Below, piece after piece: positions 4,361 to 52,230 of a stretch of DNA of 64,000 nucleotides. Position 1 is the stretch's first letter. Each line of letters starts with the position of its first letter. The notes below the pieces were generated by a model that made no database searches, was not told where the DNA came from, and was given only the letters and a program-made list of their open reading frames with translations. Location: assembly GCA_951406725.2 (NCBI GenBank), contig OX597816.1, positions 88,784,001 through 88,848,000 on the forward strand, written 5' to 3'. This stretch comes from Octopus vulgaris. Lineage: Eukaryota. The position numbers were made by a program, and so were the translations under genes.

Positions 4361-6756
4361 TATATTCTTTCTGTATATTAGCAGCGATATAGTTTATTGG
4401 GGGATACTTTCAAGGTCCTCCTTCATCGGCTCAGTACAAATTTGTCGTGTGGTGGAGGATGAGCTGCTTTGGAGAATGAAACATAATATCAACTGCATAA
4501 AAGTGGACGTTGCACAGCATAACATCATGTAACACGGGTAGACCTAGTGAACTCGTTTTCCATAGTTTTATTAGAAACTAACTTATCACGCTCCTTAGCA
4601 GAAAGCCAATGAATGATTATAGCTAATTTGAGTATTGATAAAAGTTCAAATAGAATTATACTGGTCGGTCATTATTTGCATAAATGTGTAAGCCCAGGCA
4701 AAGCCAAGGAATTAATTGACTGAATGTCTACGTTGATTTATGGTAATTAGTAGATGGTAAATTTACGCGTTGTATATTAAACAGAAATTTTTAAACTCGA
4801 TTTTTAAAATTCTGTAGTCTAGTACAATTGCGTACTTGTATATATATATATATATATATCCAAAACGAGGTTTGACTACTTTCTGCTTTGTTATGTCTCT
4901 TAATCAAATATCAATGAATTGCGTTATCGACTTGTAGGGTAGCAGTTCTTAGCTTTTTTAAAATAACACAATCTAAAATAGACCTAACTTCATGTATTCA
5001 AATTTACAAGTTTTAAGTATGCGAATTATTTCAAGTATGACCGAATTCCATATTATGATAAAACTATATAATATGATTTTCGCTTCAGTAATAGCAAATC
5101 AACCTGAATAGTTTTGGCAATTTTACGCGATTGTTTTCACATTTTTCGATCACCGAAATAATAGTAGCTTATACTTAATCATTCTGTAATAAAGTTGAAT
5201 AGAATGAAATTAGTATGTGTTAGGTTACATGGCAGTTCAAATGCTGTTAAGATGAATTAATTAATGAATAGAAGCATTACATGAAGTTTGAATAAACAGA
5301 GATGAAATTATGCTAACGTTATGGAAGCTTGCTTTTCGCTAAACACGTTTAGCCAGGCTGTGGAAGCAACTTACTTTGGTTAAACATTTTTTTTTATATG
5401 AAGCTAGAAAAAATATCGAACTATTTTCAGCTTTTTTAAATAAGTAAATGATGAGTTAATAATGATCAAGACAGTAGAGAGAATAGTAGTTTGTAGCGTT
5501 TACTTGCATACAGGAACCTAAACTTGCCTTGCCCTAATTTGGAAAACGTTTCAAGTGATTGCAAAAATTTAATCAATAGCAGTTCCACATGGCGTTATGA
5601 TAACAAAAGTGCGTGTGTTTATTTCTCACTATAATTTCGACTTTACTGCGAAATATAGGTATTTTTCTTATACGTTTAAAGTGTTTGGTCTGTGGTTAGA
5701 AAAACGAAATCGAAAAGCTAAGCTTAATTAATTAGTTGCTCATTTACCTTATTATTGAGAGGTTAGTAACTTTTATCTAATTATATTTTCTGCATATTCA
5801 AGTAGGCTATAATCATTGTACTTTAATTGGAAAACAAGGGCAAAGTAAGGATATAGAGCAAACTTATATGTATGCACTTTTTAGTAACTTCACTTATCGG
5901 ATTTTGAAATCAGAATTTAAACAGATGTAAAGATACTGCAAAGCAACTTATCTGACGATCAAACGTTGTTACTTGTTCACTGCTCTGAATTTTAAACTCT
6001 ACAATGATCAAAATTATGGTTGACTTTGACATGATTCGAACTTATGTCTCATAGCACAAGAATAAAACCAGTAAAACAATTTGTCGAACTCTCTAACGAT
6101 TTTGCTAGCTCACCATTTGCAATACATAGATTCACACAAATCACATGATTTCTAACCGGACACATAACCTGATAATTTTATATTCACAACGAAAACAGTT
6201 TATTTCGCCAACGAAAATACAAAAACCAAAAGTAAAAAACAAAATGAAAGTTAAATTTAATGCCATCAATCCGTTTGCAAAGAAATAGACGATTTAAACA
6301 CATTAAAAAAAATCGAAAAGTTAAAAAAAAAATTGTAATTACAATACAAACTATTTTCGGTTTCACCTTCATCAGAAAAATAAAGCACGAGACGTCGTAG
6401 ATTCTGGTGTAAATCCCAAAGATAACAATTAGTGTGTTTTGATGGGAATTTATTTGTCATTAATATATGTTACTTTTAAGAAGATATATTCTGTATTGAA
6501 GATGGACATTCGCCAACTGGACGCATTGTTTAAATTATAATTTGTTGCTCACTTTGTTGTTTATGCTATGGCAACGGTGAAAGTTAATGATGATGAGAGT
6601 TATACTGTTTTTCTTCGCAATTTTTTTGTTCACGTTGCTGCTAATGTATGTGTTAATGGTAGCTATCACTTTGCTGCTACTGCTGCTAATGAAGATGATG
6701 ATGGCGGGGAAGCATGGTGGTGGTTGTGGTGGTGATAATGATGATGGCAATAAAGA

Positions 6757-10081: not shown

Positions 10082-10514
10082 ATATATATATATATATATG
10101 GGGAAAATAAGGAGAAAAAGCGAAAATGCGCATTGAATATCCCCAAAAGTAATGGCTTTTTTATGAAAAGTAGCGATAAATTTAGTTACAATTAGATGAA
10201 CTGAGGTAGAATTAAGAGGAATTAAATTCATTATTTTGAATTGTTAAAGAGATTCAAAGTCAAACCGGTATCGTCATTGCTGTTCACTGGTTCCCATAAA
10301 TCTCCTCACATAACCCCAGAAACAACGAAACCTTCAACATTATCACCTCAAGTCATCCATTCTCACAGGAAATAAAACAATGAACAAATTTTAGGCTCAC
10401 ACAAAATTATCAAAAGCAAAATACAACCGAAATCGTTGAAAAAATATTAACCAACGCAAGATTTTATCTATTAACAACGGAAGCAAAAGTGAAAGAAATG
10501 CGGTCGGCCTATCA

Positions 10515-12926: not shown

Positions 12927-13254
12927 GGAGATGTACTTGCATAGCAAGTGACCTGATCTGAGATCGTGTGCTGAAACGAAAACATTGCAGCGTGGAAGGT
13001 CTTTATAAGCCATTTAAGAAACACACAAAAACCGTTAAATTCACTTCAACATTTAAATTTAATTTGTCAAAATATTTTCGTCGCTTTGAGACCGCGACCT
13101 GTTCACTGAGATGCAGCACGGAATTTTATCAGTGAACAAGTCACGGTCTAAAAGCGATGAAATATTTTGGCATATTAAATTCAAATGTTGAAGTGAATCC
13201 AACGGGTTTTATGTGTTTCTTAAATGGCTTATAAACACCTTCCACGCTGCAATT
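12927..13254. mobile_element. Foldback insertion (~125-bp arms) with 14-bp TSD; probable Penelope inverted pseudo-LTR remnant
   Basis: 12984-13109 is nearly the reverse complement of 13129-13253. GTATTAACTATTCT flanks both sides (12913-12926, 13255-13268). A 57-bp unpaired extension lies on one side, and the arms contain a hammerhead-like motif. Confidence 0.8.
13067..13109 (-). ncRNA. Type I hammerhead ribozyme-like motif, G3-C8 core variant
   Basis: Minus strand: tca GTGAACA g GTCGC ggtctcaaa GCGAC GAAA atat TT tga (stem I, core, 5-bp stem II, GAAA, palindromic stem III, UH). Confidence 0.65.
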
Positions 13255-19446: not shown

Positions 19447-22400
19447 TCTCTCTATATATAAACGGCAGTTTGTCTGTGCGTGCTTCTGTGTGTCTGTTTT
19501 CTCGTACCCTCACCCTGACCACGGCTTTCAACCGATTCTGATGAAACTTGACACACACATAGCCCAATGTCATAATTCAAAACTAACGCAGCGAAAATTT
19601 TGAAAAGTTCCCCCAGTTCTGAAAAAAATTGATAAATTCGACATGGGGTCGAGAATCATAAACATGAACCACAGACTGTCTAGGGGACGCAACTCGAGAA
19701 TCTAAGCTTTTTTTATGCAACGCATTATCTATGGTAGTTTTCACAACTTGCAATCGATTTTCACCAAACTCATGGTGAAGCTTAATGTTACCTAAGAAAC
19801 TCAATTCTGACGTTAGTTTTCCATGCAATACCTTACCATCAGAAACAATCGATAAAATCATGCCATTTTGGGAAATCGCGTTCAAATTCAAGATGACATA
19901 TTTTCGACAATATCTTTCACAAATTGGCAGGAATCTTTTTTTTTCACAACGAGCATCATGTCTGCTCCAAGGAGCTATATAGCCCTTTTTATTCCAATAG
20001 GATACATTATTGGAAAAAATCGGTTAATTTAATCATATGTGGCACACATAGCAAACAAATTTGTGTATTAAACACAAACCAGACTGTCTAGGGGACGCAA
20101 CTTGACCTTTTTAGCTATCGATAATTCGATCCAACCAATTCCTACCAGGAAGAAATTACATTCGAGACTTTACCCCCAACACCGCCACTTCTGCTAATAG
20201 CTGCTGCAGCCGCAAGTTATTCGAATACTTTTTTTGTTTAAACTTTCTTTATAACTACCACCCCAAACGTTTTACCTTCAATTTTTGACGTACCCTAACG
20301 GTCCTCGGACGCTACTTGCAAACTCTTGGTTTATTAGAAACCACTTTTGTCGTGTGCATCAAAAAACTTTTCCTTTCGTTTGTTCAGTTTGATCACTTTT
20401 GACTTTTTCGTTGTTGTCACTCACATTGCTGCCAGCTTTTTGGCCGTTTTTGTACATTTTTATACATTTTCGGATACTTACCCCACGAGCTCCTTTTTAT
20501 TACACCTTTACCAAACACATTGCTATCCACCAAAATACTTACCCCACGTGTTCCTTTTTATTACACCTTTGCCAAACACATTGCTATCCACCAAAATGCC
20601 ACCCAAGAAGAGAAGGACCCTCCTCAGCCCTCGGACGGCCAAGGCATCGGCTGCTAGGGCTAGAAGGGCACGCGAGACCCACGAGGAAACCGCCTTGCGC
20701 CTCTCGCAAACAGCTTCCCGTTATGCCGCTGCTCAGGCATCTGAAACTACTAGCGACCGTTCTACCCGACTTGCAAGGGTCGCAGCGTACAGATCTTCCC
20801 TCCGCTCGAGGTTGACGAAAGAGCAACAGTCCAGCCAAAACATGCGGGCTTCTTACTGTGCTTCCATCCGCAGAGCTCGCGAGAACCCCGAACAAAGGGC
20901 CATTCGGAATGCGGCTAACGCCACTAGCACCGCCAGGACACGATCTGTCGAAACATCACAGCAGAGGAGAACTCGCCAAGATGCTGACGCCGCAAACAAA
21001 GCCATGGCCAAAGCTGCCGAAACACCTCAACAGAGGAGAGCTCGCCAAGCTGCTAACGCCGCAAACACAGCCAGGGCTCGATCTGCCGAAACTCCACACC
21101 AACGGACTATTCGGACATCCAGACATGCCATTAACACTGCTTCTGCTAGGGCTTCAGAGGGTGCTGAGGCGAGAGCTGAAAGGCTTTCAAGGGATGCCAC
21201 TGCTACCGCTGTCGCACGTGCATCTGAATCTGCTGAGGCACGGTGCACTCGACTTGAGAGTATCAACAAACGTCGGGATATCATTCGTGGTGTACGTACC
21301 CCTGCCCCCGCTTTCTGGTTGTCACTAGCATTCAATTACGACGCCACAATTAACTTCTCCTTGCGTGACGACATCAAGATAGGGTCAATGACAATTGTAT
21401 GCCAGTTTTGCAAAGCCAAGAAATGGCCCGGAGAGCCACCTGGTTTGTGCTGCTCTGGTGGCAAAGTGGACCTGCCACCCCTACGGGAACCACCTCAACC
21501 ACTGAAGGATCTCGCGGCGGGTTTAACCCCCGATTCGTCACAATTCCTTGAAATAATTCGAAAGTACAACTGCTCATTCCAAATGACCTCTTTCGGGGCC
21601 AAAATTCCTCCCAGAGAAGGCTGGATGCCTACTTTCAAAGTGCAGGGACAGGTCTACCATCTTATTGGGTCACTTCTGCCAGACGAGATTCAGCAGTCTT
21701 CTTTCCTCCAAATATACTTCATTGCCGACTACAACCACCAGGTTGATGCACGCCTTGGAATAATACCGGGTACAAGCTATGTTCCCCGCAAAGACATTCT
21801 TCTCCGTCTCCAAACCATGCTTCATGATATCAACAGCTACGTCTGCAGCTTCAGATATGCCTTGGACAGTGCTCCATCTTCAAACTTCACCGTTGTCATT
21901 GATGCTGATAAACGACCCCACGGGGAGCACGAACGCCGTTTCAACGCACCTGCGTGCAACGAAATTGCCGCAGTCATACACGGAGAGCAACACAACAGCC
22001 GTGACATAATCATCTCCTCCCGTGGTAACAACCTACACAGGATCAGCGAGACTCACAGATCTTATGACGCGCTTCAGTATCCATTGCTTTTCCCTTATGG
22101 GGAAGACGGCTACCACTTCGGAATTCCTTTACGGCAGCCCTCCAATCAAACTACTGCGGCATCAAAGACGGTTTCCTGCAGGGCGTTCTATTCATACCGG
22201 TTCATGGTCAGGGAGGGTGAGTTCAACTTATTGCCCCGTTGTCGTCAGCTATTCAACCAGTTCGCCGTCGACATGGCCGCAAAAATGGAATCGGAAAGGC
22301 TGCTATACATTAAACTTAATCAGACCAAACTTCGCTCCGACTCCTACATTCATCTCCGTGACGGTTTGCAACAAGAAAATGACCCTCGCAACATCGGCAA

Positions 22401-22667
22401 GCCATGCATCCTACCCTCCACCTTCACGGGAGGACCGCGATATATGCGTGAAAGGACCCAAGACGCCTTGACCTACGTGCGCATTTACGGCCGGCCGGAC
22501 CTCTTTATCACCTACACGTGCAATCCCAGCTGCGACGAAATCACTCGCGAACTCCTCCCGGGTCAATCTCACACCCATCGACACGACATCGTTGCTAGGG
22601 TTTTCCGTCTGAATTTGGGCAACTAGGGGCTCTTACATACCCGGGCAACGCCGGGCTATGCTGCTAG
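19447..22667 (+). mobile_element. Helitron, internally deleted, both termini intact
   Basis: 5' A|TCTCTCTATATATAAA at 19447; 3' hairpin CCCGG-gcaacg-CCGGG (22640-22655) then CTAG|T at 22664-22667; A|T target site; encloses a RepHel N-terminal ORF. Confidence 0.92.
20596..22626 (+). CDS. Truncated Helitron RepHel protein (676 aa from the ATG of MPPKKRR): 23-aa repeats, Cys motif, Helitron_like_N region, Rep motif I
   Basis: Motifs CQFCKAKKWPGEPPGLCCSGGKV, IRKYNCSFQMTSFG, FKVQGQVYHLIGSL, YDALQYPLLFPYGEDG, ILPSTFTGGPRYM and GRPDLFITYTCNP. It stops before the HUH motif, catalytic tyrosines and PIF1 helicase; no internal stops. Confidence 0.88.
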   Translation: MPPKKRRTLLSPRTAKASAARARRARETHEETALRLSQTASRYAAAQASETTSDRSTRLARVAAYRSSLRSRLTKEQQSSQNMRASYCASIRRARENPEQRAIRNAANATSTARTRSVETSQQRRTRQDADAANKAMAKAAETPQQRRARQAANAANTARARSAETPHQRTIRTSRHAINTASARASEGAEARAERLSRDATATAVARASESAEARCTRLESINKRRDIIRGVRTPAPAFWLSLAFNYDATINFSLRDDIKIGSMTIVCQFCKAKKWPGEPPGLCCSGGKVDLPPLREPPQPLKDLAAGLTPDSSQFLEIIRKYNCSFQMTSFGAKIPPREGWMPTFKVQGQVYHLIGSLLPDEIQQSSFLQIYFIADYNHQVDARLGIIPGTSYVPRKDILLRLQTMLHDINSYVCSFRYALDSAPSSNFTVVIDADKRPHGEHERRFNAPACNEIAAVIHGEQHNSRDIIISSRGNNLHRISETHRSYDALQYPLLFPYGEDGYHFGIPLRQPSNQTTAASKTVSCRAFYSYRFMVREGEFNLLPRCRQLFNQFAVDMAAKMESERLLYIKLNQTKLRSDSYIHLRDGLQQENDPRNIGKPCILPSTFTGGPRYMRERTQDALTYVRIYGRPDLFITYTCNPSCDEITRELLPGQSHTHRHDIVARVFRLNLGN

Positions 22668-22699
22668 TTATATATATATACATATATAGTAGTAACAGA

Positions 22700-23850
22700 A
22701 AAGGGTAATTTCGGTTGTCCCCACGTGGTGGATTGTAATGTATATAAGAAAATAAAAACTTATTGTATAATTTTTGATGTATCGACCGGTTTCGCAATCG
22801 CTATTCATGATACAATGTTTAATTTATATGAAAATATATTTTTCTTAAGAAGAAAATGGGTCCATGTTGTTTCTAATGAAATTCACGAGTGAATGATTTT
22901 ACAAGTTGACAAGTAAAGGGAGCTAATTGGTTGTTATTATAGTTATTGTTGTGTGTAAGGGAGATAACTGTTTAGGTTTTGGGTGGCGAATAAATATGTA
23001 TACAGAAAGGAGACAGGTTTAAAAAAGGGGGTCTTGTTTGGTAGTGGATTTATGTACAGTGACGTAATATGTAAAAATATAAAAATTGGTTATGCGTGCT
23101 TATTAAGACGCGTTTTGTATTTTTCAATAAAAAAAGTTTCTTTATTTAAGCGTTCTAGTTGCGAGATTGTGTCTTTGCACTGGTAGAAAGGGAAGACTGT
23201 AAAATTTGGTTTGATGTTACCTGCACATTTTTCTATGTGTTCACTAAGAGGAATTTGTCTGTATTGCGGGAAACGGATTTGCTCCTTATGCAGAGTGATT
23301 CTCGTCCCCAAAGGTAAACTCGTTTGTCCAATGTACTGATGACTGAAACCCGAGCAGGTTATTACATAAATTAGGTTCTCAGAGGCACAGGTGAAACTAG
23401 TTTTAATTGTGAACCTCTGTCCTTGTTTGAAAAGGAAATCCGAGCCTTCAAGCAGGTGGGGGCAGGTTCCACAGTTCGGGCGTCCACATTTTTGAACCGT
23501 AGGTTTCGTGGTTGTTTTGTAAAGCTTCGCATTTGTTAGTAGTCTCTTTAACGATTTGTCTTGTTTTTTTGCATTTGTTGAGTTTGTGTGTTTTCAGGAT
23601 GTCGTTCATTTTTGGATCTCTAGTTAGTAAAGGGAGAGTTTGCACAATAGTGTTGAATGCCTCATTGTTTCTGGGGTTGTGTGTTGATATAAAAAGTAAT
23701 GTTTTGGTTTGAGGTGTGGTGCTATGTTTTTTGTTCTTAGTGTTTTTGTGTCTAATTGTTTGGCACGTTTAATTCCCTCGTCGATAAGAGAGGGTGGATA
23801 TTGTCTTTCAATAAGCGTTGTTTTGAGGTTTTGTCTGATAGAACAACTCG
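22700..23850 (-). mobile_element. Penelope-like element 3' part (RT thumb, GIY-YIG endonuclease, pLTR)
   Basis: Minus strand: ERQYPPSLIDEGIKRA; FTCASENLIYVI../QYIGQT..GTRITLHKEQIR..ERLNKETFFIEKYKTRLN, followed by a hammerhead motif at 22778-22814. Confidence 0.85.
22778..22814 (-). ncRNA. Minimal type I hammerhead ribozyme-like motif, A3-U8 core variant
   Basis: Minus strand: TGTATC ATGAATA GC gatt GC GAAA CCGG TC GATACA. Perfect 6-bp stem I, palindromic stem III, GUC site, directly downstream of the GIY-YIG ORF. Confidence 0.75.
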
Positions 23851-23879
23851 GGACCTTGCACTATTGCATAACTAATGCA

Positions 23880-24018
23880 TAACTGGTAGTTATTTTATCG
23901 ACCCCCAAAGGATGAAAGGCAAAGTCGGCCTAATCTGGATTTGAATTCAGAACATAAAAACGGAAGTAATGCCGCTAAGTATTTTGCCGGGCGTGCTAAC
24001 GATCCTGCCAGCACGCCG
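23880..24018 (-). mobile_element. SINE family A
   Basis: tttatcgacccccaaaggatgaaaggcaaagtcggcc..gggcgtgctaacgatcctgccagc. Confidence 0.85.
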
Positions 24019-24740: not shown

Positions 24741-26956
24741 AAGGATTTAGAAGAATAACTAGTTCCAGATATAAAGACTTACGTTATTTTCATTTTTCTG
24801 GCTGTCTACGCGCTGAGTTAAAATACGGCTTAAGTTACATTCGCTTTCCATAATATATATACTAACAATACAAGATTGTCTCTGTCGGAATTCTTTAAGC
24901 TCCAGATGAGATTCCATTGCTTTATCTGTTCGGCTCTCCTACGATGACACTGATACCAATCTGTATAAGCCGTTGTCGTTTCACTGGGCAAAATCAGTAA
25001 TGTGATGTGAAGGATGTGAAAGACATTCATGTTCCTGAGTAAATTCAGATTTATTCATTAAAGACGTTGCCCAAATTTACATCTTGAAGGCGATAATAAT
25101 GATAATAATAACAAATAACCACAGCGAATTTAACTAGATTTTGTGAAACCCTAAATCAGCCCTGATTCAACTATGGCCGAAATGTAAATAGCATTCAAAT
25201 CCCACCCAAAATATTTTTTTAAAATAAACTGTATGATTTGAGCAAAATGTCATTGTTATTTCTAGTTGTTTAAGCGATCATATAGAGGTTTTAAACTGCG
25301 GCTTCACGATTTAAGTCTAGTTAAATAATGTGTTATTACATTAAAAACTGGATTATTTCATTGATATATTGACCTTTATACCGTTATTGCCTGCCATTAT
25401 TAAGATGTTTTTCGATAGTATATAGGTAGAGATGTGTTTTAAAGTTTTTCATACTTGTTGTTGTTTATAACATACTTAAAAATTTTCATCACGTTCAAAT
25501 GCGGGAGAAGATTATTCAACGAATATTTTTGTGTTGTCTGGATAACGATTTATTCTTGAACGGATTATCTATTCGCACCCGTGTCTAGCATGCTGAAAAT
25601 TTGAACGACAAAAGTATGTACAAAGTCAATTACCACGATGATATTTGTAAATCTGTGGACTGCTTAATTATTTGTTTATATATTTATTCTTTCTCTTCTA
25701 TTTAATTGTTCTCTCATTCATTGTTGGAAACAAATATATGATCGCGTCCACATACGACTAACTTTTACATTTCTCTACTTAATAATATTCGAATATTCTG
25801 GAGTGTCTGGGGAGAGTCATTCTCTTTTGGTGCCTTATAATTTAACAAACTTACCGGTAAAATTTCCATATATTTCTTTTTTATTTCTCTAAAATTTTCG
25901 TTGCGTCTTGCAACCTTTTCAATAGTTGAAAAGGTTGTAAGACGCAACCATTAAAATCTTAATAAGGTTGTGCAGAAATTTATAGTCCCAGATATCGCGA
26001 TCATATGTTGTGTTCCAATGTTTATTGTTAGTATAGTCACGATTAGGAGGAAGAAAACTAATATGACGAAGCACGATTTATGTCTTTTCATTTTCAGTTT
26101 ATACTTAGTAGTAAATGATATAGTTGATAGAAAAATGAGCCGATAGTAAATGATATACTTGTTAGTAAATGACATGATATTCTTTAAAATTCAGACAAAT
26201 TTCTTCATCGTTAATTTTTTTAATTTTTTCCGACTTGGATGTTCTTTTCTCTCAAGATGTTTCCTTTCTATAATTGTATCGAAGTATGGTCAGGAGTTTT
26301 AATTTGTTTGAGAATAATTTTTCTACTGTACGTCAATTATGCTACGAAAAATAGAGTATTTTGGTTGTATTTAAAATGTTCATCATGGAATGAAATACGT
26401 CTCTCCGTAAACTTTTTGAGTATACCTAACACAAAATAGTAGTCGCTTAGTTATTTGCCTCTTTTCTGATTACTTCTTGTGGGATATAAAATCTACTGAT
26501 TTGTGTTGTAGTATACATGGATGATTTACAAATTGCTTCAGTGTTCATGGTACAGTGTTGAATACCGTTGTAATTTTCCACCTGAGAGCTAAATGACGTT
26601 AAAAATTTCATAGCTTAATTATGAGATCAATTCTTCTATCCAGTGTTCTGTGGAAGGGAGCCCCTTAACTGTTCACTGTGAGCAGCAACAACATAACAAC
26701 AATATGAAAATGAGAAATTGAAAAGAAGCAATTGAACAATGTATTAGTAAAGATGGAGTAAATACTGCTGGTAGGCATGATGCTGACGATGAAGGTGATG
26801 ATGATCGATGTTGATGACAATGAAAGTGATGGCGATTATAATGATGATGATGAAGAGCGGGTTAATACGAATTACAAAAGCAGAGGAAAAGTAAACGAAG
26901 GATTAGAATAACAAAAACATCTCGATAAGTACATAAAATTGATCATTTAGATTAAT

Positions 26957-27200: not shown

Positions 27201-27869
27201 AAAACGTTCTAATGTCATTAGTAACATATAAACAAGCAACAAAGTACAAACTAGAAGCTAATTTCACAGTGAAAAAGACTTTAGATTAGAACAAAGGAAC
27301 GTATGAACATAGAAATTAAAATCCCAAAAACAATTTTTTTAAATTACCAAATGGAGAATGGAGACAATATCTCTGCATAATAAGTATCCTATAATTGTGT
27401 ACAGATTCGCTGTGCGCTTATTTGAAAACAAAGAATGATAATACTGACAGTTAATATGAATTTAACATTATTGGAAGGACCATTTAGTCAAAGAAAGTTT
27501 GCTCCAGTAGTTGAATACCTTTTACTTTAGAAAGAATTGCACTATAAAATACTGACAGATGCTTGAGGATTCAGTAGGCTAGTGATAAGAGTTTAATAAT
27601 ACTAATGATTTCCATGTTTTGAACAAAATTATAAATATGGCAGAAGACTGAAGTAGTTTAATCGCAGGTCAGCCTTCATCGTGTAGATTTGTGATCATAA
27701 CCACTCCAGTCACAAAATGTCTTATTTCCAGACTGTAGTATATCTACTGCTACCTTATCTTATGTATTTTAATTTATGAATGGTTGGTTGTGAGTTTATT
27801 TTTAATTAATTGCTATTTCAAGCTGGTAGATTGACCATGTTAAATATTGCTCATTGGTTCTGGCCTATG

Positions 27870-29608
27870 TTATCGGTCTGAGCAGCAGCCATCTATGCTG
27901 GATCTGGTATTCTCCCGCTATCCAAGATCAGTGTCTGGCGTATCTGTGTGCGCCATTCTTGCCAAGAGTGATCATGCGGTCCTGAAGTTCGTCATGCACA
28001 CAACTTTTTCTACGCCCATGACTACTTCGCTGCCACGTAGAGTCTTCTCTGCAATTAATCTTGAAATTCTAAGCGAGGCTTCCGCGCTTCTGGACTGGCG
28101 ATCCCTGATGACGTTGTCCTCAGTTTACGAACTATGGTCGTCCCTCAAAGCATATGTAATCTGGTTGACTGACCAAGCAGTTCCCGTTGGGCTTCCCAAG
28201 AAGAAGAAACACAAGCCCTGGGTGACGAAGAAGGTTAAACGAGAACTTTGACTCAGAGATATTGCTTGGGCTGAATTCAAAAATCTGGATTCGACTGCAG
28301 CTTTTGAGGTGTACAAAACTCAACGAGACCGAGCCGTGAAAATTGAAAAGGAAGAACGCTTCAGATATGAATACAGAATCGCGGCAAACGCCAGTAGCAA
28401 TCCAAAAACCTTCTTTGCCCATGTCCAACGGAATTCCCGCTTGAACAACCAAATTGCAACGTTGGTAGAATCAACAGGCGTATCGATTGAGGGCCCTTAT
28501 CAACAGAGTCAATTGTTTGCCGAGGCTTTTTCAACTATTTTCAAACAATATGATGGTCGTGAACCCCTTCCATTTGATAGATCGGTACCTCCAATGCTTC
28601 GATTGATCATCACGCGGGACAAAGTCGAACGCGTTATTTAAGCAGTGGCGTGCCTCAAGGTTCAGTGCTTGGGCCCTTATTGTTCTTAGTCTTCATAAAT
28701 GACTTGCCCGACAACCTCACGCAACACACCCTTCTATTTGCCGACGATGTCAAACTGGTCGCTCCTCGCGGTGATATACAGGATCTTCGTCGATGCCTCC
28801 ACCAAATTTGGAGATGGTTTAACGAATGTCTGAATGTGTCAAAGTGCTGTCATCTGCCTGTTGGCTCTCCTCCTGCAACTCAACTTGATTTCGAGCCGGG
28901 TCGTCTGCTGCTGGAGAGGACCGATCAGGTAAAGGACCTGGGTTTCTTGGTGGATTCCTCATTTTCGCCTTCGACCCAGTGCGTCCATGCTGCCAACAAA
29001 GCACGCGGAGTTCTGTTCTTGATTCGACGGTCATTCGGAATGCTTACAGCAGCCATATTCCTACCGCTCTATGTCACGCACGTGAGACCCATATTGGAGT
29101 ACGGGATTCAAGCCTCTTCTCCTTATCTCTTCAAAGACATACAGCATCTCGAAAGAGTCCAGAAGCTGGCTACCCGCATGGTTCTTGGTCTCAAGAATTT
29201 GTCTTATGAAGAAATGCTCGACCTTTATTCTCTAGAAAAACGACGACGCCGTGGTGATCTCATTCATGCTCACAACATCATAAGCGGAAAGTGTAATCTC
29301 TCGAAGAAGCTGTTCTTCACTCCTGCTCCAAAGCGTCGGCTGCGGGGTCATTCCGAAAAGCTCTATCTGCGACGATTTCATCTTAATCGAAGGAGAGGGG
29401 CTTTCTCCGTCCGGGTTGCGGATCCGTGGAATAAGCTGCCGGACGAGATGGTGAAGATGCCGACGACCGCTCGGTTCAAAGTCTCCCTTGACCACAAGTG
29501 GCCTGAACTCTTTACATGAACACCACCCTGTACATAACTCCATGTCCCCCTACATGGCCTTGCTTTTTTGCTTTTTGAGCCAAAAATTAACTAACTAACT
29601 AACTAACT
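27870..29608 (+). mobile_element. CR1-clade LINE, 5'-truncated and internally deleted, with (TAAC)n tail
   Basis: APE C-terminus LDLVF..SDHAVLKF; NPKTFFAHV; jump at ~28640 to GVPQGSVLGPLLFLVFINDL, LFADD, RPILEY, LERVQKLATR; 3' (TAAC)5 tail; possible TSD ttatcg(g/a)tct at 27870 and 29608. Confidence 0.92.
28650..29519 (+). pseudogene. LINE ORF2 C-terminal half (RT domains 4-7 and thumb)
   Basis: 289-aa open frame with PQGSVLGP and FADD; lacks RT domains 0-3. Confidence 0.85.
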
Positions 29609-35197: not shown

Positions 35198-36492
35198 TTA
35201 GGTTATCAGGAAAGTTCTTGCGGTTTTTAATCGTTAAATTCAGATGCACATATCTCGGCTCAAACAAAACTTTATTAATCTAAATAAACACCATCAGAAT
35301 CAACACACTTCTGCCAACGCGAATCAAGTTTATTTACGCCAGTAGCGTAAAACTCCTGTGTTCTAATGGCGATGAAGTCGTTGAAGGCGTGTTTGACATA
35401 GTCTTGGCTTTTTAAGCATTCCTCATGCAATAAGTTGTCGAGATGCTTGAAAAAGTGGTAGTCGGTAGGCGAGAGGTCTGGTGAGCATGGCGGATGAAGC
35501 AGAGTTTTATAGCCTAATTCGTTCAACTTCTGCAGGGTCAGTTGTGCGACGTGCGGCCGAGCGTTATTGTGAAGAATTGGTCTTTTTCTATTGACCAATG
35601 CTGGTTGTTGTTGTCGGAGTTTCTTATGTATTTCAACCATTTGCTGACAGTACTTCTCCGCCGTAATTGCTTCGCCTCGATCCAAAAAGCTGTGATGGAT
35701 GAGACCGGCCGCAGACCATCAAACAGTTACCATAGCCTTCTTTTGGTGCAACTTTGGCATCGGGAAGTGCCGTGAGGCTTCGTCGGCGTCCGACCACTGA
35801 GCTGAGCGTCGCTGGTTGTCGTAAGGAATCCACTTTTCAGCGCAAGTCACAATCGGGTTGGGAAACGAGTCGTTATTGTTGCGTAACAATAAGGGAAGAC
35901 GACACTTCAAAACGACGTTATTATTTATTTTTTGGGGGGGGTTGTCGTTGAATTCGTGCGGCACCCATTTCTCAAGTATTTTTTTTTCCAATCTCTTTCA
36001 AATGGTTGGAAATTGTCGTGAACGTTACGTCTAATACTGAAGCAAGCTCTCGAACAGTTATACGTGGATTTGCTACGACTAAATCTCTTAGTTGATCGTT
36101 GTCAACATCAGATGGCCGACCACTATGCTTATCATCTTCAAGTCTCACGTCACCGCTACGAAAATTCTTCAACCACTATTGTGCTGTACGTTCATTAGTG
36201 GTTCCTGGGCCAAACACACCATTGATATCGCGAGCTGCTTCAGCAGCTTTTAGGCTAGCTTGAACTGGAATAAGAAAATTGTGCGAATTTGCTTTTTGTC
36301 CATGTTGTATTCAACGTTCCGGGAAAAGTGGTCCAATGATTCAAAAAGAAAATGAGTAACACGATTAGATAGAGCGAAAAACGGGCTTTAAAATGATATA
36401 TAAAGTCAAAGTTATTTAACGAGAATTAATTTGAAAATACATAAGTTAAAACCAAAATTTAAAATTCCGCAAGGACTTTCTTGACAACCTAA
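35198..36492 (-). mobile_element. Full-length mariner (Hsmar1/cecropia-like), TA TSD, decayed
   Basis: TIRs TTAGGTTATCAGGAAAGTTCTTGCGG and (reverse complement) TTAGGTTGTCAAGAAAGTCCTTGCGG, each flanked by TA; ~1.3 kb. Confidence 0.95.
35275..36303 (-). pseudogene. mariner transposase pseudogene
   Basis: MDKKQIRTIFLFQF.., SGRPSDVDNDQL, KWVPHE, HNNARPH, SPDLSPTDYHFF, RWQKCVDSDG; frameshifts and stops. Confidence 0.92.
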
Positions 36493-50659: not shown

Positions 50660-52230
50660 ACCGCCCTTGCCAGAGCACGTTCCGTAGACCGTGCATCTGC
50701 TCTCTCCGCCCGAACCCGCCCTGCAGTCTCCCGCCTCCCTTTTCCCCTCACCACCCACCACCCTACCTTCCAACCTGGCTCGTTCCCCCTGCTCCCGCCC
50801 ACGCTGACGCACTTGCCCTTACCTCTCCAACACTACCCTCCTCACCGGCACCCATCATCGACCCTATCGCATCATCGACTCCTTCAACTGTACCTCCAGC
50901 AATATCATCTATTGCATCTCCTGCTCTCTCTACCATTCCCTGTACATCGGAAAAACGGGTCGCCGCTTGGCTGACCGGCTCGCGGAATACCTCCGAGACA
51001 TCCGCCTCGCCAATGACACTCCAGTCTCACGCCATTTCCGCTCCACCGGTCACTACTTGCAACACATGTCTGTGTTCGGATTGTCCTTGCACAGAGGCCA
51101 TCCGGATTCTCTCTTCGCTCTTTTACGCCATTTGGGCTCAACTCCCCCCTTTTCATCTAACCTCCTCCCCGACTCCTAGTTTTCTTCACTCCTACATCTT
51201 TTCACCCTTACTCTCTTTCCCTCTTCTTCCGTTCTTCCCCTTCTTCCTTCTTCTTCTCTCTTCTTCCCTCTTCCCCTTCTTTCTTTCTCTCTGCTCCCTC
51301 ACTCCCCGTCTCTCCCCTCTCCCACTCCTTCCTCCTACTCTCCCTCCCCTCCCCCTTCCCCCTCTCTCCCCTCCTCTCATCTCTCCCCTCGTCCTCCACC
51401 CCCTCCCATCTCTTCTCTCCTCTCTCTCTCCCCATCCCCCGTCCCCCTCTCTTCTCTCCTCTCCTCCTATCTCTCCTCATATAAACATCTCCCCCTCCCC
51501 CATAAACCCAACCCACCCCTACTCCACCTTCCCTATCCCACACCTCTCCCTACATAACTCACCCATATCCCATACCACCCCCACATACCTCACCTCTAAC
51601 CCCACCCTCTACCTACCCACAACCCCCACTCTACCCCAACCCCCAGCCGAATCCACACCCCACATGTGCTTTCCCCACTCTCGCCTCCCCCACATCCCCA
51701 GATCACACCACACTACATTACACCATACAACATTACACATCACATCACAACACATCACCCACAGCACACCACCAATACACCCATCCCCACATCATTACAC
51801 CTGCACATATATACACATATCACATCACAACACACTACCCACACCCATCCCCACATCTCCACACCCACACATACAAACACACACGTCCAGACCACGAGCC
51901 TTCTTTCACACGCACATACATACTCTCTTATACACACACGCACCTTTGTGTTGGGGGCACCTTCGTATTGGAAGTCAGTTGACCGTGTTATTTCCCCTAC
52001 TGTCCCTCTCGCGTCTGACCACTGTCCGAAGCCAGGACGCCATGATAGATCGTTAGCTCCTACACGCATTTTTTTCTCTCCTTGTTTCTCTCCTTGTTTT
52101 TTCTGTGTATCTTTCTGTCGAAGAGCGTAGGCTTGAAACGTAAAAGACTTTTTTCTATTCCTGAGCGCTATACTAATACATTTGAACTCCATCTGCCTTC
52201 GTCTTTTGTTTATTTTCATAAACTTTCCCT
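50660..52230 (+). mobile_element. Penelope-like element 3' part: GIY-YIG pseudogene, C-rich spacer, pLTR with hammerhead
   Basis: GSFPCSRPR*RTCPY..DSFNCTSSNIIYCISCSLYHSLYIGKTGRRLADRLAEYLRDIR..PVSRHF at ~50770-51060; hammerhead motif at 52110-52147. Confidence 0.88.
52110..52147 (+). ncRNA. Minimal type I hammerhead-like motif, A6U variant
   Basis: TCTTT CTGTCGA a GAGC gtag GCTT GAAA CG TA AAAGA: 5-bp stem I, 4-bp stem II, loopless palindromic stem III, GUA site. Confidence 0.7.

What the first reader, a model, noticed from the sequence alone, without database searches (positions are those of the whole stretch)
22778..22814. 37-nt A3-U8 minimal hammerhead at the 3' end of a GIY-YIG Penelope element
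Seen: a perfect 6-bp stem I (TGTATC/GATACA), 2-bp stem II with a tetraloop, GAAA-CCGG-TC, on the same strand and about 280 bp downstream of the GIY-YIG ORF. This is where a pLTR ribozyme is expected. It is the cleanest non-canonical example and every helix is intact.
Basis: partly seen in the sequence, partly recalled or inferred. Interest (0 to 1): 0.7.

Follow-up and report, generated by a model that had tools for sequence, protein, structure and literature searches.

The report
Octopus retrotransposon hammerhead with A3-U8 core
A broken jumping-gene copy, likely from an octopus, ends in a tiny hammerhead-ribozyme-shaped RNA whose normally fixed C-G core pair is replaced by A-U; it likely cut itself only slowly and in pairs, and such variants would be missed by standard searches.

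Summary
Confirmed. On the minus strand, 22814-22778 reads as a type I minimal hammerhead: 6-bp stem I, core AUGAAUA (A3, U8), 2-bp stem II, GAAA, palindromic ACCGGU, GUC site (C17 = 22784). Comparable motifs arose 0-4 times in 2000 shuffled windows. It lies 275 nt after the stop of a 5'-truncated, twice-frameshifted Penelope-like element (C-terminal GIY-YIG, Neptune/Nematis-type linker, family present in Octopus bimaculoides), about 95 nt before its (TA)n end, where pLTR hammerheads sit. Helix III is not intact in a monomer; a double-hammerhead dimer is predicted (-18.1 vs -10.0 kcal/mol for two monomers), but the window holds no second copy. Three other window motifs carry U3-A8, G3-C8 (twice) and C3-G8/A6U cores; all 4 of 4 pair at 3-8 versus 26% in shuffles, so the swap looks real. 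No other copy of this family was reachable: family consensus and cleavage are untested, and one published mutational scan found only the G-C swap rescued. U3-A8 is known in nature; I found no natural A3-U8 report, but four key papers were unavailable. Verdict: new variant of a known kind; interest 0.42.

The parts
22778..22814 (-). Minimal type I hammerhead motif, A3-U8 core, 37 nt
   Evidence: sequence
22809..22814 (-). Stem I, 5' strand (pairs with 22783-22778, 6 of 6 WC)
   Evidence: pair probabilities 0.80-0.88 for 5 of 6 pairs, 0.48 for the end pair
22802..22808 (-). Core positions 3-9, AUGAAUA: A3 = 22808, U8 = 22803; positions 3-5 also spell AUG
22794..22801 (-). Stem II, 2 bp with G10.1-C11.1, 4-nt loop, no extra base between 9 and 10.1
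22785..22793 (-). G12-A13-A14 then palindrome ACCGGU (A15.1 to U16.1), predicted intermolecular helix III
   Evidence: homoduplex -8.3; double hammerhead -18.1 kcal/mol
22784..22784 (-). C17; predicted cleavage on its 3' side
   Evidence: hammerhead numbering as in PMC4209133
23090..23839 (-). 3' remnant of a Penelope-like ORF: end of RT thumb region, linker with CX4CxxC, GIY-YIG endonuclease, TAA stop; two frame switches near 23730 and 23570; second Cys of the CCHH motif is Phe in this copy
   Evidence: PF01541, E 4.8e-06; P0001 233-479, E 4e-90
22690..23089 (-). 3' UTR / pseudo-LTR region holding the hammerhead; element ends at about 22690 (inferred from the start of the TA repeat)
22668..22690 (.). 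(TA)n microsatellite, likely insertion target
   Evidence: (TA)n preference in PMC8557442

Best explanation
This is the pseudo-LTR hammerhead of a dead, 5'-truncated Penelope-like retrotransposon copy, with an A3-U8 pair in place of C3-G8 that was likely inherited from its family and that likely allowed only slow, dimer-dependent and possibly protein-assisted self-cleavage after GUC in the parental tandem transcript. Shown: the motif, its strand and place, the element and its breaks, the single copy in the window. Inferred steps: (1) in a tandem parent, one transcript holds two copies of the motif; (2) their ACCGGU palindromes pair into a 6-bp helix III and the 6-bp stem I strands pair, giving a double hammerhead; (3) A3-U8 forms the isosteric 3-8 pair that places the 2'-OH of residue 8 as general acid while G12 is the base (established mechanism, PMC6155905), with a rate penalty; (4) cutting trims the multimeric RNA to unit length; (5) this copy, alone and without ORF, is a relic that would cleave little, since its monomer is predicted mostly misfolded.
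For: Chance 0-4 per 2000 shuffled windows. Same strand, 275 nt after the EN stop and about 95 nt (C17) before the (TA)n end; listed Hydra-clade hammerheads mostly start about 100-200 nt before the consensus end. All other core positions, G10.1-C11.1, A15.1-U16.1, H17 and a palindromic helix III match the PLE consensus; the same ACCGGU helix III occurs in Chlamys-2_cBra and -5_cBra. Dimer -18.1 kcal/mol vs -10.0 for two monomer minima and -20.6 for the dimer minimum. With 3 and 8 left free, 4 of 4 window hits pair at 3-8 (A-U, U-A, G-C, C-G) vs 74 of 285 in 1000 shuffles; the G3-C8 core is present in both of two diverged inverted copies, so a swap is inherited in that family. Two chance transversions in one copy: about 6e-5 to 1e-3 for 3-15% divergence (rough, assumed rates). 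Natural U3-A8 and 2-bp stems II are described. A PLE hammerhead needed its protein and was partly rescued by C3G/G8C.
Against: One copy only; no family alignment could be made. A full double-mutant scan of a type III hammerhead rescued the 3-8 pair only with the G-C swap; all other mutants in that region were low. Monomer: open hammerhead fold in 3.6% of samples, 0.3% with 20-40 nt flanks; A3 mispairs with U16.1 in about 40% and a rival hairpin buries GAAA in 35-88%. The predicted dimer minimum is a different, inactive fold 2.5 kcal/mol lower; with 40-nt flanks it was 12 kcal/mol lower, though flanks were held unpaired in the hammerhead model so this is not like for like. Stem II of 2 bp and no 9/10.1 extra base are atypical: none of 56 published PLE-type motifs has fewer than 3 bp. 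In Anolis, cleavage was dispensable for insertion in vitro and no RNA-seq read ended at the site.
Confidence: 0.62

Rival explanations
1. A3-U8 is the family state but the motif no longer cuts; the fold is kept as a protein-binding or RNA-pairing element of the pseudo-LTR.
For: Only the G-C swap rescued in a published scan; cleavage dispensable in Anolis PAc in vitro; weak stem II and misfolding; a fourth window motif has A6U, and a change at position 6 lowered activity.
Against: Catalytic G12, the GAAA, A15.1-U16.1, H17 and a Watson-Crick 3-8 pair, which matters for catalysis, are all kept.
Confidence: 0.18
2. The family has a canonical or U3-A8 core and this dead copy reached A3-U8 by two neutral substitutions.
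For: The copy is decayed; single copy; found by wide scanning.
Against: Needs two specific transversions (about 6e-5 to 1e-3) while stems stay perfect; neighbouring families show inherited swaps.
Confidence: 0.1
3. The motif cuts as a monomer, its long stem I and very short stem II being held by an unseen tertiary contact.
For: Natural hammerheads with 1-2 bp stem II can be fast when a pseudoknot helps; stem I is stable.
Against: Helix III is 1 bp and destabilising; metazoan motifs with such palindromes need dimers; no tertiary partner was tested for.
Confidence: 0.05
4. A3 was selected because positions 3-5 then spell the AUG start of the downstream ORF in tandem elements, U8 compensating.
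For: The frame from this AUG is open for 39 codons to the element end; the Anolis Poseidon ORF starts inside its hammerhead and its copies end 111-118 nt into the ORF, close to the 118 nt here.
Against: Open-frame chance 0.064; no match (best E 4.5, elsewhere) of any UTR frame to 193 related proteins, 24 of them 730 aa or longer; a second frame is also open.
Confidence: 0.04
5. Chance arrangement in AT-rich DNA.
For: No Rfam hit; fold z-score 0.19; descriptor tuned after the fact.
Against: 0-4 in 2000 shuffled windows, plus right strand and place.
Confidence: 0.01

Closest known systems
Minimal type I hammerheads of metazoan Penelope-like elements (Cervera and de la Pena 2014, PMC4209133)
   Same: Type I, in the 3' pseudo-LTR, G10.1-C11.1, GAAA, palindromic helix III, predicted dimer; single 3' motif in 5'-truncated copies
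   Different: A3-U8 (of their 56 aligned motifs 53 read C3-G8, 2 U3-A8, 1 U3-G8, none A3); stem II 2 bp instead of 3-8; no extra base after A9; stem I 6 bp
U3-A8 core variants (Schistosoma Cercyon family, about 1,300 hits, PMC4209133; natural examples in PMC3088659)
   Same: Watson-Crick covariation of the 3-8 tertiary pair
   Different: Purine at 3 and pyrimidine at 8 (two transversions from C-G rather than two transitions)
Newt/axolotl satellite hammerhead HHR_Amex1 (PMC7229834)
   Same: Helix III of one pair capped by a palindromic tetraloop; dimer-dependent
   Different: Canonical core, loop-loop contacts and tandem retrozyme repeats there; here single, in a PLE remnant
Anolis Poseidon (PAc) hammerhead (PMC11167929)
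   Same: PLE pseudo-LTR motif about 120 nt from the end of copies
   Different: Canonical C3-G8, Poseidon clade; shown to be protein-assisted, untested here
Neptune/Nematis-type EN+ Penelope-like elements (PMC8557442)
   Same: C-terminal GIY-YIG, CX2-5CxxC linker, (TA)n neighbour
   Different: This copy is truncated and frameshifted; clade not fixed by RT phylogeny

Membership tests
PLE minimal type I hammerhead | Literal core CUGANGA (C3, G8) | tested here: not met
   AUGAAUA
PLE minimal type I hammerhead | Positions 3 and 8 able to form a Watson-Crick pair | tested here: met
   A-U
PLE minimal type I hammerhead | U4, G5, A6, A9, G12, A13, A14, A15.1-U16.1, H17 | tested here: met
   0 mismatches
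PLE minimal type I hammerhead | G10.1-C11.1 opening stem II | tested here: met
PLE minimal type I hammerhead | Palindromic helix III / loop 3 | tested here: met
   ACCGGU
PLE minimal type I hammerhead | Extra base between 9 and 10.1 and a long helix II (usual, not universal) | tested here: not met
   no extra base, 2 bp
PLE minimal type I hammerhead | Sense strand, 3' pseudo-LTR of a PLE | tested here: met
   a second, 5' repeat is absent
PLE minimal type I hammerhead | Conserved across copies of the family | not testable with these tools
   no animal genome collection; searches found nothing
PLE minimal type I hammerhead | Self-cleavage after H17 | not testable with these tools
   needs bench assay
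Canonical type I hammerhead / non-LTR retrozyme | 4-bp helix II with loop-loop contact, Rfam match, short tandem repeats | tested here: not met
Neptune/Nematis EN+ PLE | GIY-YIG endonuclease at the C-terminus, after RT | tested here: met
   relatives carry PF00078 before the matched part; stop follows EN
Neptune/Nematis EN+ PLE | CX2-5CxxC linker | tested here: met
   CX4CxxC invariant in 10 of 10 rows
Neptune/Nematis EN+ PLE | CCHH motif in EN | tested here: inconclusive
   second Cys is Phe in this copy, Cys in the other 9 of 10 rows
Neptune/Nematis EN+ PLE | RT phylogeny placing it in Neptune rather than Nematis | not tested
   RT core absent from this copy; no named reference proteins in session
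Naiad PLE | N-terminal endonuclease | tested here: not met
Hydra PLE | CCHH absent and CxCX5C linker | tested here: not met
   against the definition

The most novel reading that the evidence does not exclude
A3-U8 is the selected, working core of an octopus Penelope family - a natural hammerhead with the fourth Watson-Crick pair at 3-8 - and octopus PLEs as a group use all four pairs plus A6U, forming a large ribozyme population invisible to CUGANGA descriptors and Rfam, in which the element's protein makes up for weak cores.
Probability: 0.3. Interest if true: 0.65.

Novelty: new variant of a known kind. Interest (0 to 1): 0.42.

Why it matters
The 3-8 pair positions the general acid of the hammerhead. 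Nature was known to use C-G and U-A; a family-level A3-U8 (and G3-C8 next door) would complete the set and show that searches demanding CUGANGA undercount PLE ribozymes, including in elements reported to lack one. A genome with matched natural variants also gives a ready test of an open question: whether PLE hammerheads are kept for cutting (pairing conserved, activity measurable) or only as a fold. It does not reveal a new kind of system, and this copy is a relic.

Tried and rejected
Rfam at E <= 10: no hammerhead in the window (137 matches, nearly all microsatellite-driven) or locally. Self-BLAST: no second copy of the motif or 5' pseudo-LTR. Prokaryotic genome scan with the protein alignment, hoping for host contigs: 1 of 131 stretches confirmed, an unrelated Mucilaginibacter locus at 36% identity, not used. 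Searching translations of two stop-free frames across the motif to read positions 3 and 8 in other copies: no candidate (near lengths only). AUG-as-start idea: unsupported; an eye-catching short likeness of one UTR frame to a relative's N-terminal region did not score. One search had a stem II bug that dropped the target from its relaxed list; redone. crashed; redone. Alternative register with C as position 3 plus an inserted A: rejected, since position 8 would still be U. No structure prediction or complex job was run: it would not bear on the RNA question. Viral and metagenome contig collections stayed unchecked.

Full report
Observation. The finding is on the minus strand. Read from 22814 to 22778 it has a 6-bp Watson-Crick stem I, the core AUGAAUA (A3 = 22808, U8 = 22803), a 2-bp stem II opened by G10.1-C11.1 with a 4-nt loop, GAAA, CCGG, U16.1 and C17 = 22784. 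A15.1 to U16.1 reads ACCGGU, a palindrome. In 2000 windows shuffled in 1-kb blocks with dinucleotides kept, a descriptor allowing any Watson-Crick 3-8 pair, stem I >= 6 and stem II >= 2 gave 4 hits, and 0 with G10.1-C11.1; the loosest version (stem I >= 3) gave 576, or 0.29 per window, against 3 observed. Thresholds were chosen after seeing the motif. Rfam does not see it and its fold energy is ordinary (z 0.19).

Host element. Upstream on the same strand, 23839-23090 is the 3' third of a Penelope-like ORF: Pfam GIY-YIG E 4.8e-06; 9 longer relatives among 204 candidates, 7 of 9 with a precomputed RT domain, best 77% identical; tblastn of P0001 covers residues 233-479 at E 4e-90. The copy changes frame near 23730 and 23570, has Phe for the second Cys of the CCHH motif, and has lost the RT core. 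The CX4CxxC linker and C-terminal endonuclease fit Neptune or Nematis, not Poseidon, Naiad or Hydra, by the definitions in PMC8557442; no tree was made. A RefSeq Octopus bimaculoides protein matches 81% over 73 residues, the only named one of 10 proteins looked up; more distant named relatives are from Pinctada. An octopus origin of the window is therefore inferred. The stop lies 275 nt before the motif, and the element ends at a (TA)n tract about 95 nt after C17. There is no second copy or 5' repeat in the window.

Folding. As a monomer the motif cannot form helix III (+1.1 kcal/mol with the single pair, -4.0 without; minimum -5.0). The open hammerhead fold made up 3.6% of 2000 samples, 0.3% with 20-40 nt flanks; A3 pairs with U16.1 in about 40%, and a rival hairpin over GAAA takes 35-88%. 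Two copies form a double hammerhead at -18.1 kcal/mol, against -10.0 for two monomers and -20.6 for the best, inactive dimer. With long flanks the comparison was not like for like. In-silico C3-G8 and G3-C8 versions misfold more in this context than A3-U8 and U3-A8 (gaps 6.5, 6.9 vs 2.5, 1.7 kcal/mol), a weak hint that the flanking bases suit a weak 3-8 pair.

Is the 3-8 pair real? Other copies were out of reach, so the window served as a control. With 3 and 8 free and one core mismatch allowed, 4 motifs passed: the target (A-U), 25889-25925 minus (U-A), 13067-13109 minus (G-C) and 52110-52147 plus (C-G with A6U). All 4 pair at 3-8; in 1000 shuffles 74 of 285 hits did, 1 window had two paired hits and none had four (thresholds again post hoc, and paired registers were favoured in ties). 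The G3-C8 core recurs in a diverged inverted copy at 13129-13162. Five loose CUGANGA matches passed no stem filter. Two specific transversions in one decaying copy would have a chance of about 6e-5 to 1e-3 at 3-15% divergence (assumed rates). I therefore take A3-U8 as likely inherited, not shown.

Mechanism. Established: G12 is the general base, the 2'-OH of residue 8 the likely general acid, and 3-8 is a tertiary Watson-Crick pair. PLE minimal hammerheads were inactive alone and weakly active as dimers; the Anolis one cut only with its protein, C3G/G8C partly rescued it, and cutting was not needed for insertion in vitro. Inferred: in a tandem parent two motifs pair through ACCGGU and cut slowly after C17, trimming multimeric RNA; this lone copy is a relic. 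Against activity: in a complete double-mutant scan of a type III hammerhead only the G-C swap rescued the pair, though that was a co-transcriptional assay and natural U3-A8 exists.

Comparison and novelty. U3-A8 is known in nature. Of 56 motifs aligned in the supplement of PMC4209133 none has A3, and all 34 rows in File S2 of PMC8557442, including one octopus Hydra element, start with the canonical four letters; both sets came from descriptors that largely demanded them. Full-text searches for hammerhead with A3-U8, A3U8, U3-A8, G3-C8, C3-G8, 'positions 3 and 8', C3A and G8U and for octopus with Penelope and hammerhead returned no natural A3-U8 report. This is weak: Lunse 2017 (about 150,000 PLE variants, recalled), Przybilski and Hammann 2007 (title seen; recalled to test such exchanges in vitro), Nelson and Uhlenbeck 2008 and Arkhipova 2017 were not held. 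It works like a PLE minimal hammerhead; it fails the literal C3/G8 consensus and is filed as a variant.

What I saw of each paper. PMC4209133: main text parts 1-2 of 4 and supplement parts 1-2 of 3. PMC3088659: parts 2-3 of 8 and passages; its supplements and Dataset S1, which may list further core variants, were not read. PMC11167929: passages and second part of the main text. PMC8557442: passages, supplement parts 1-2 of 59 and one search of it. PMC9901934: passages only; the heat-map values for A-U were not seen. PMC6765202, PMC6155905, PMC7229834, PMC7761336, PMC3884650, PMC11014351, PMC6962438: passages. bioRxiv 10.64898/2026.07.22.740005: part 1 of 5 and passages; its supplements are closed.

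Verdict. Real, well placed, beyond chance; new variant of a known kind; consensus and activity untested. Interest 0.42, rising to about 0.65 if A3-U8 proves to be a working family core.

Noticed in passing
window 12984-13253: Palindromic element: 94-nt inverted arms (91%) around two inverted hammerhead-like motifs with G3-C8 core (13067-13109 minus, intact; 13129-13162 plus, degenerate). Likely a non-autonomous PLE derivative; a natural G3-C8 family may be as notable as the target.
   Followed up: partly
window 25889-25948: U3-A8 minimal hammerhead (minus) with 5-bp stem II and extra base; a 23-nt inverted copy starting exactly at position 3 lies 3 nt away and would sequester the core. No PLE ORF found near it.
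   Followed up: partly
window 50750-52230 (+): Second, more divergent GIY-YIG remnant (50790-51116) followed about 1 kb later by a C3-G8 hammerhead with A6U and 5-bp stem I (52110-52147), then a (TA)n tract: another PLE 3' end.
   Followed up: partly
window 20338-22667 (+): Helitron remnant: ORF with STPR repeats and Helitron_like_N, cut off at 22626, then a GC-rich hairpin and CTAG at 22664-22667 abutting the same TA tract as the PLE; hairpin-CTAG as the Helitron 3' end is recalled knowledge.
   Followed up: partly
window 23876-24018: SINE-like repeat just beyond the PLE's truncated 5' end, with at least 7 related copies in the window; likeness to an octopus SINE is recalled, not tested; followed by a long (TTC)n/(GAA)n tract.
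   Followed up: no
window 10300-10494 (+): Short decayed piece related to the target element's linker region (69% over 163 nt), with no hammerhead found after it.
   Followed up: partly
window 6330-6375 (-): Canonical CUGAUGA core with a 2-bp stem and GAAA but no stem I; possibly a decayed canonical motif.
   Followed up: no
window 27844-29516 (+); 35278-35718 (-): Broken LINE (RVT_1, E 2.1e-10) and a mariner-type transposase piece (E 1.9e-10).
   Followed up: no
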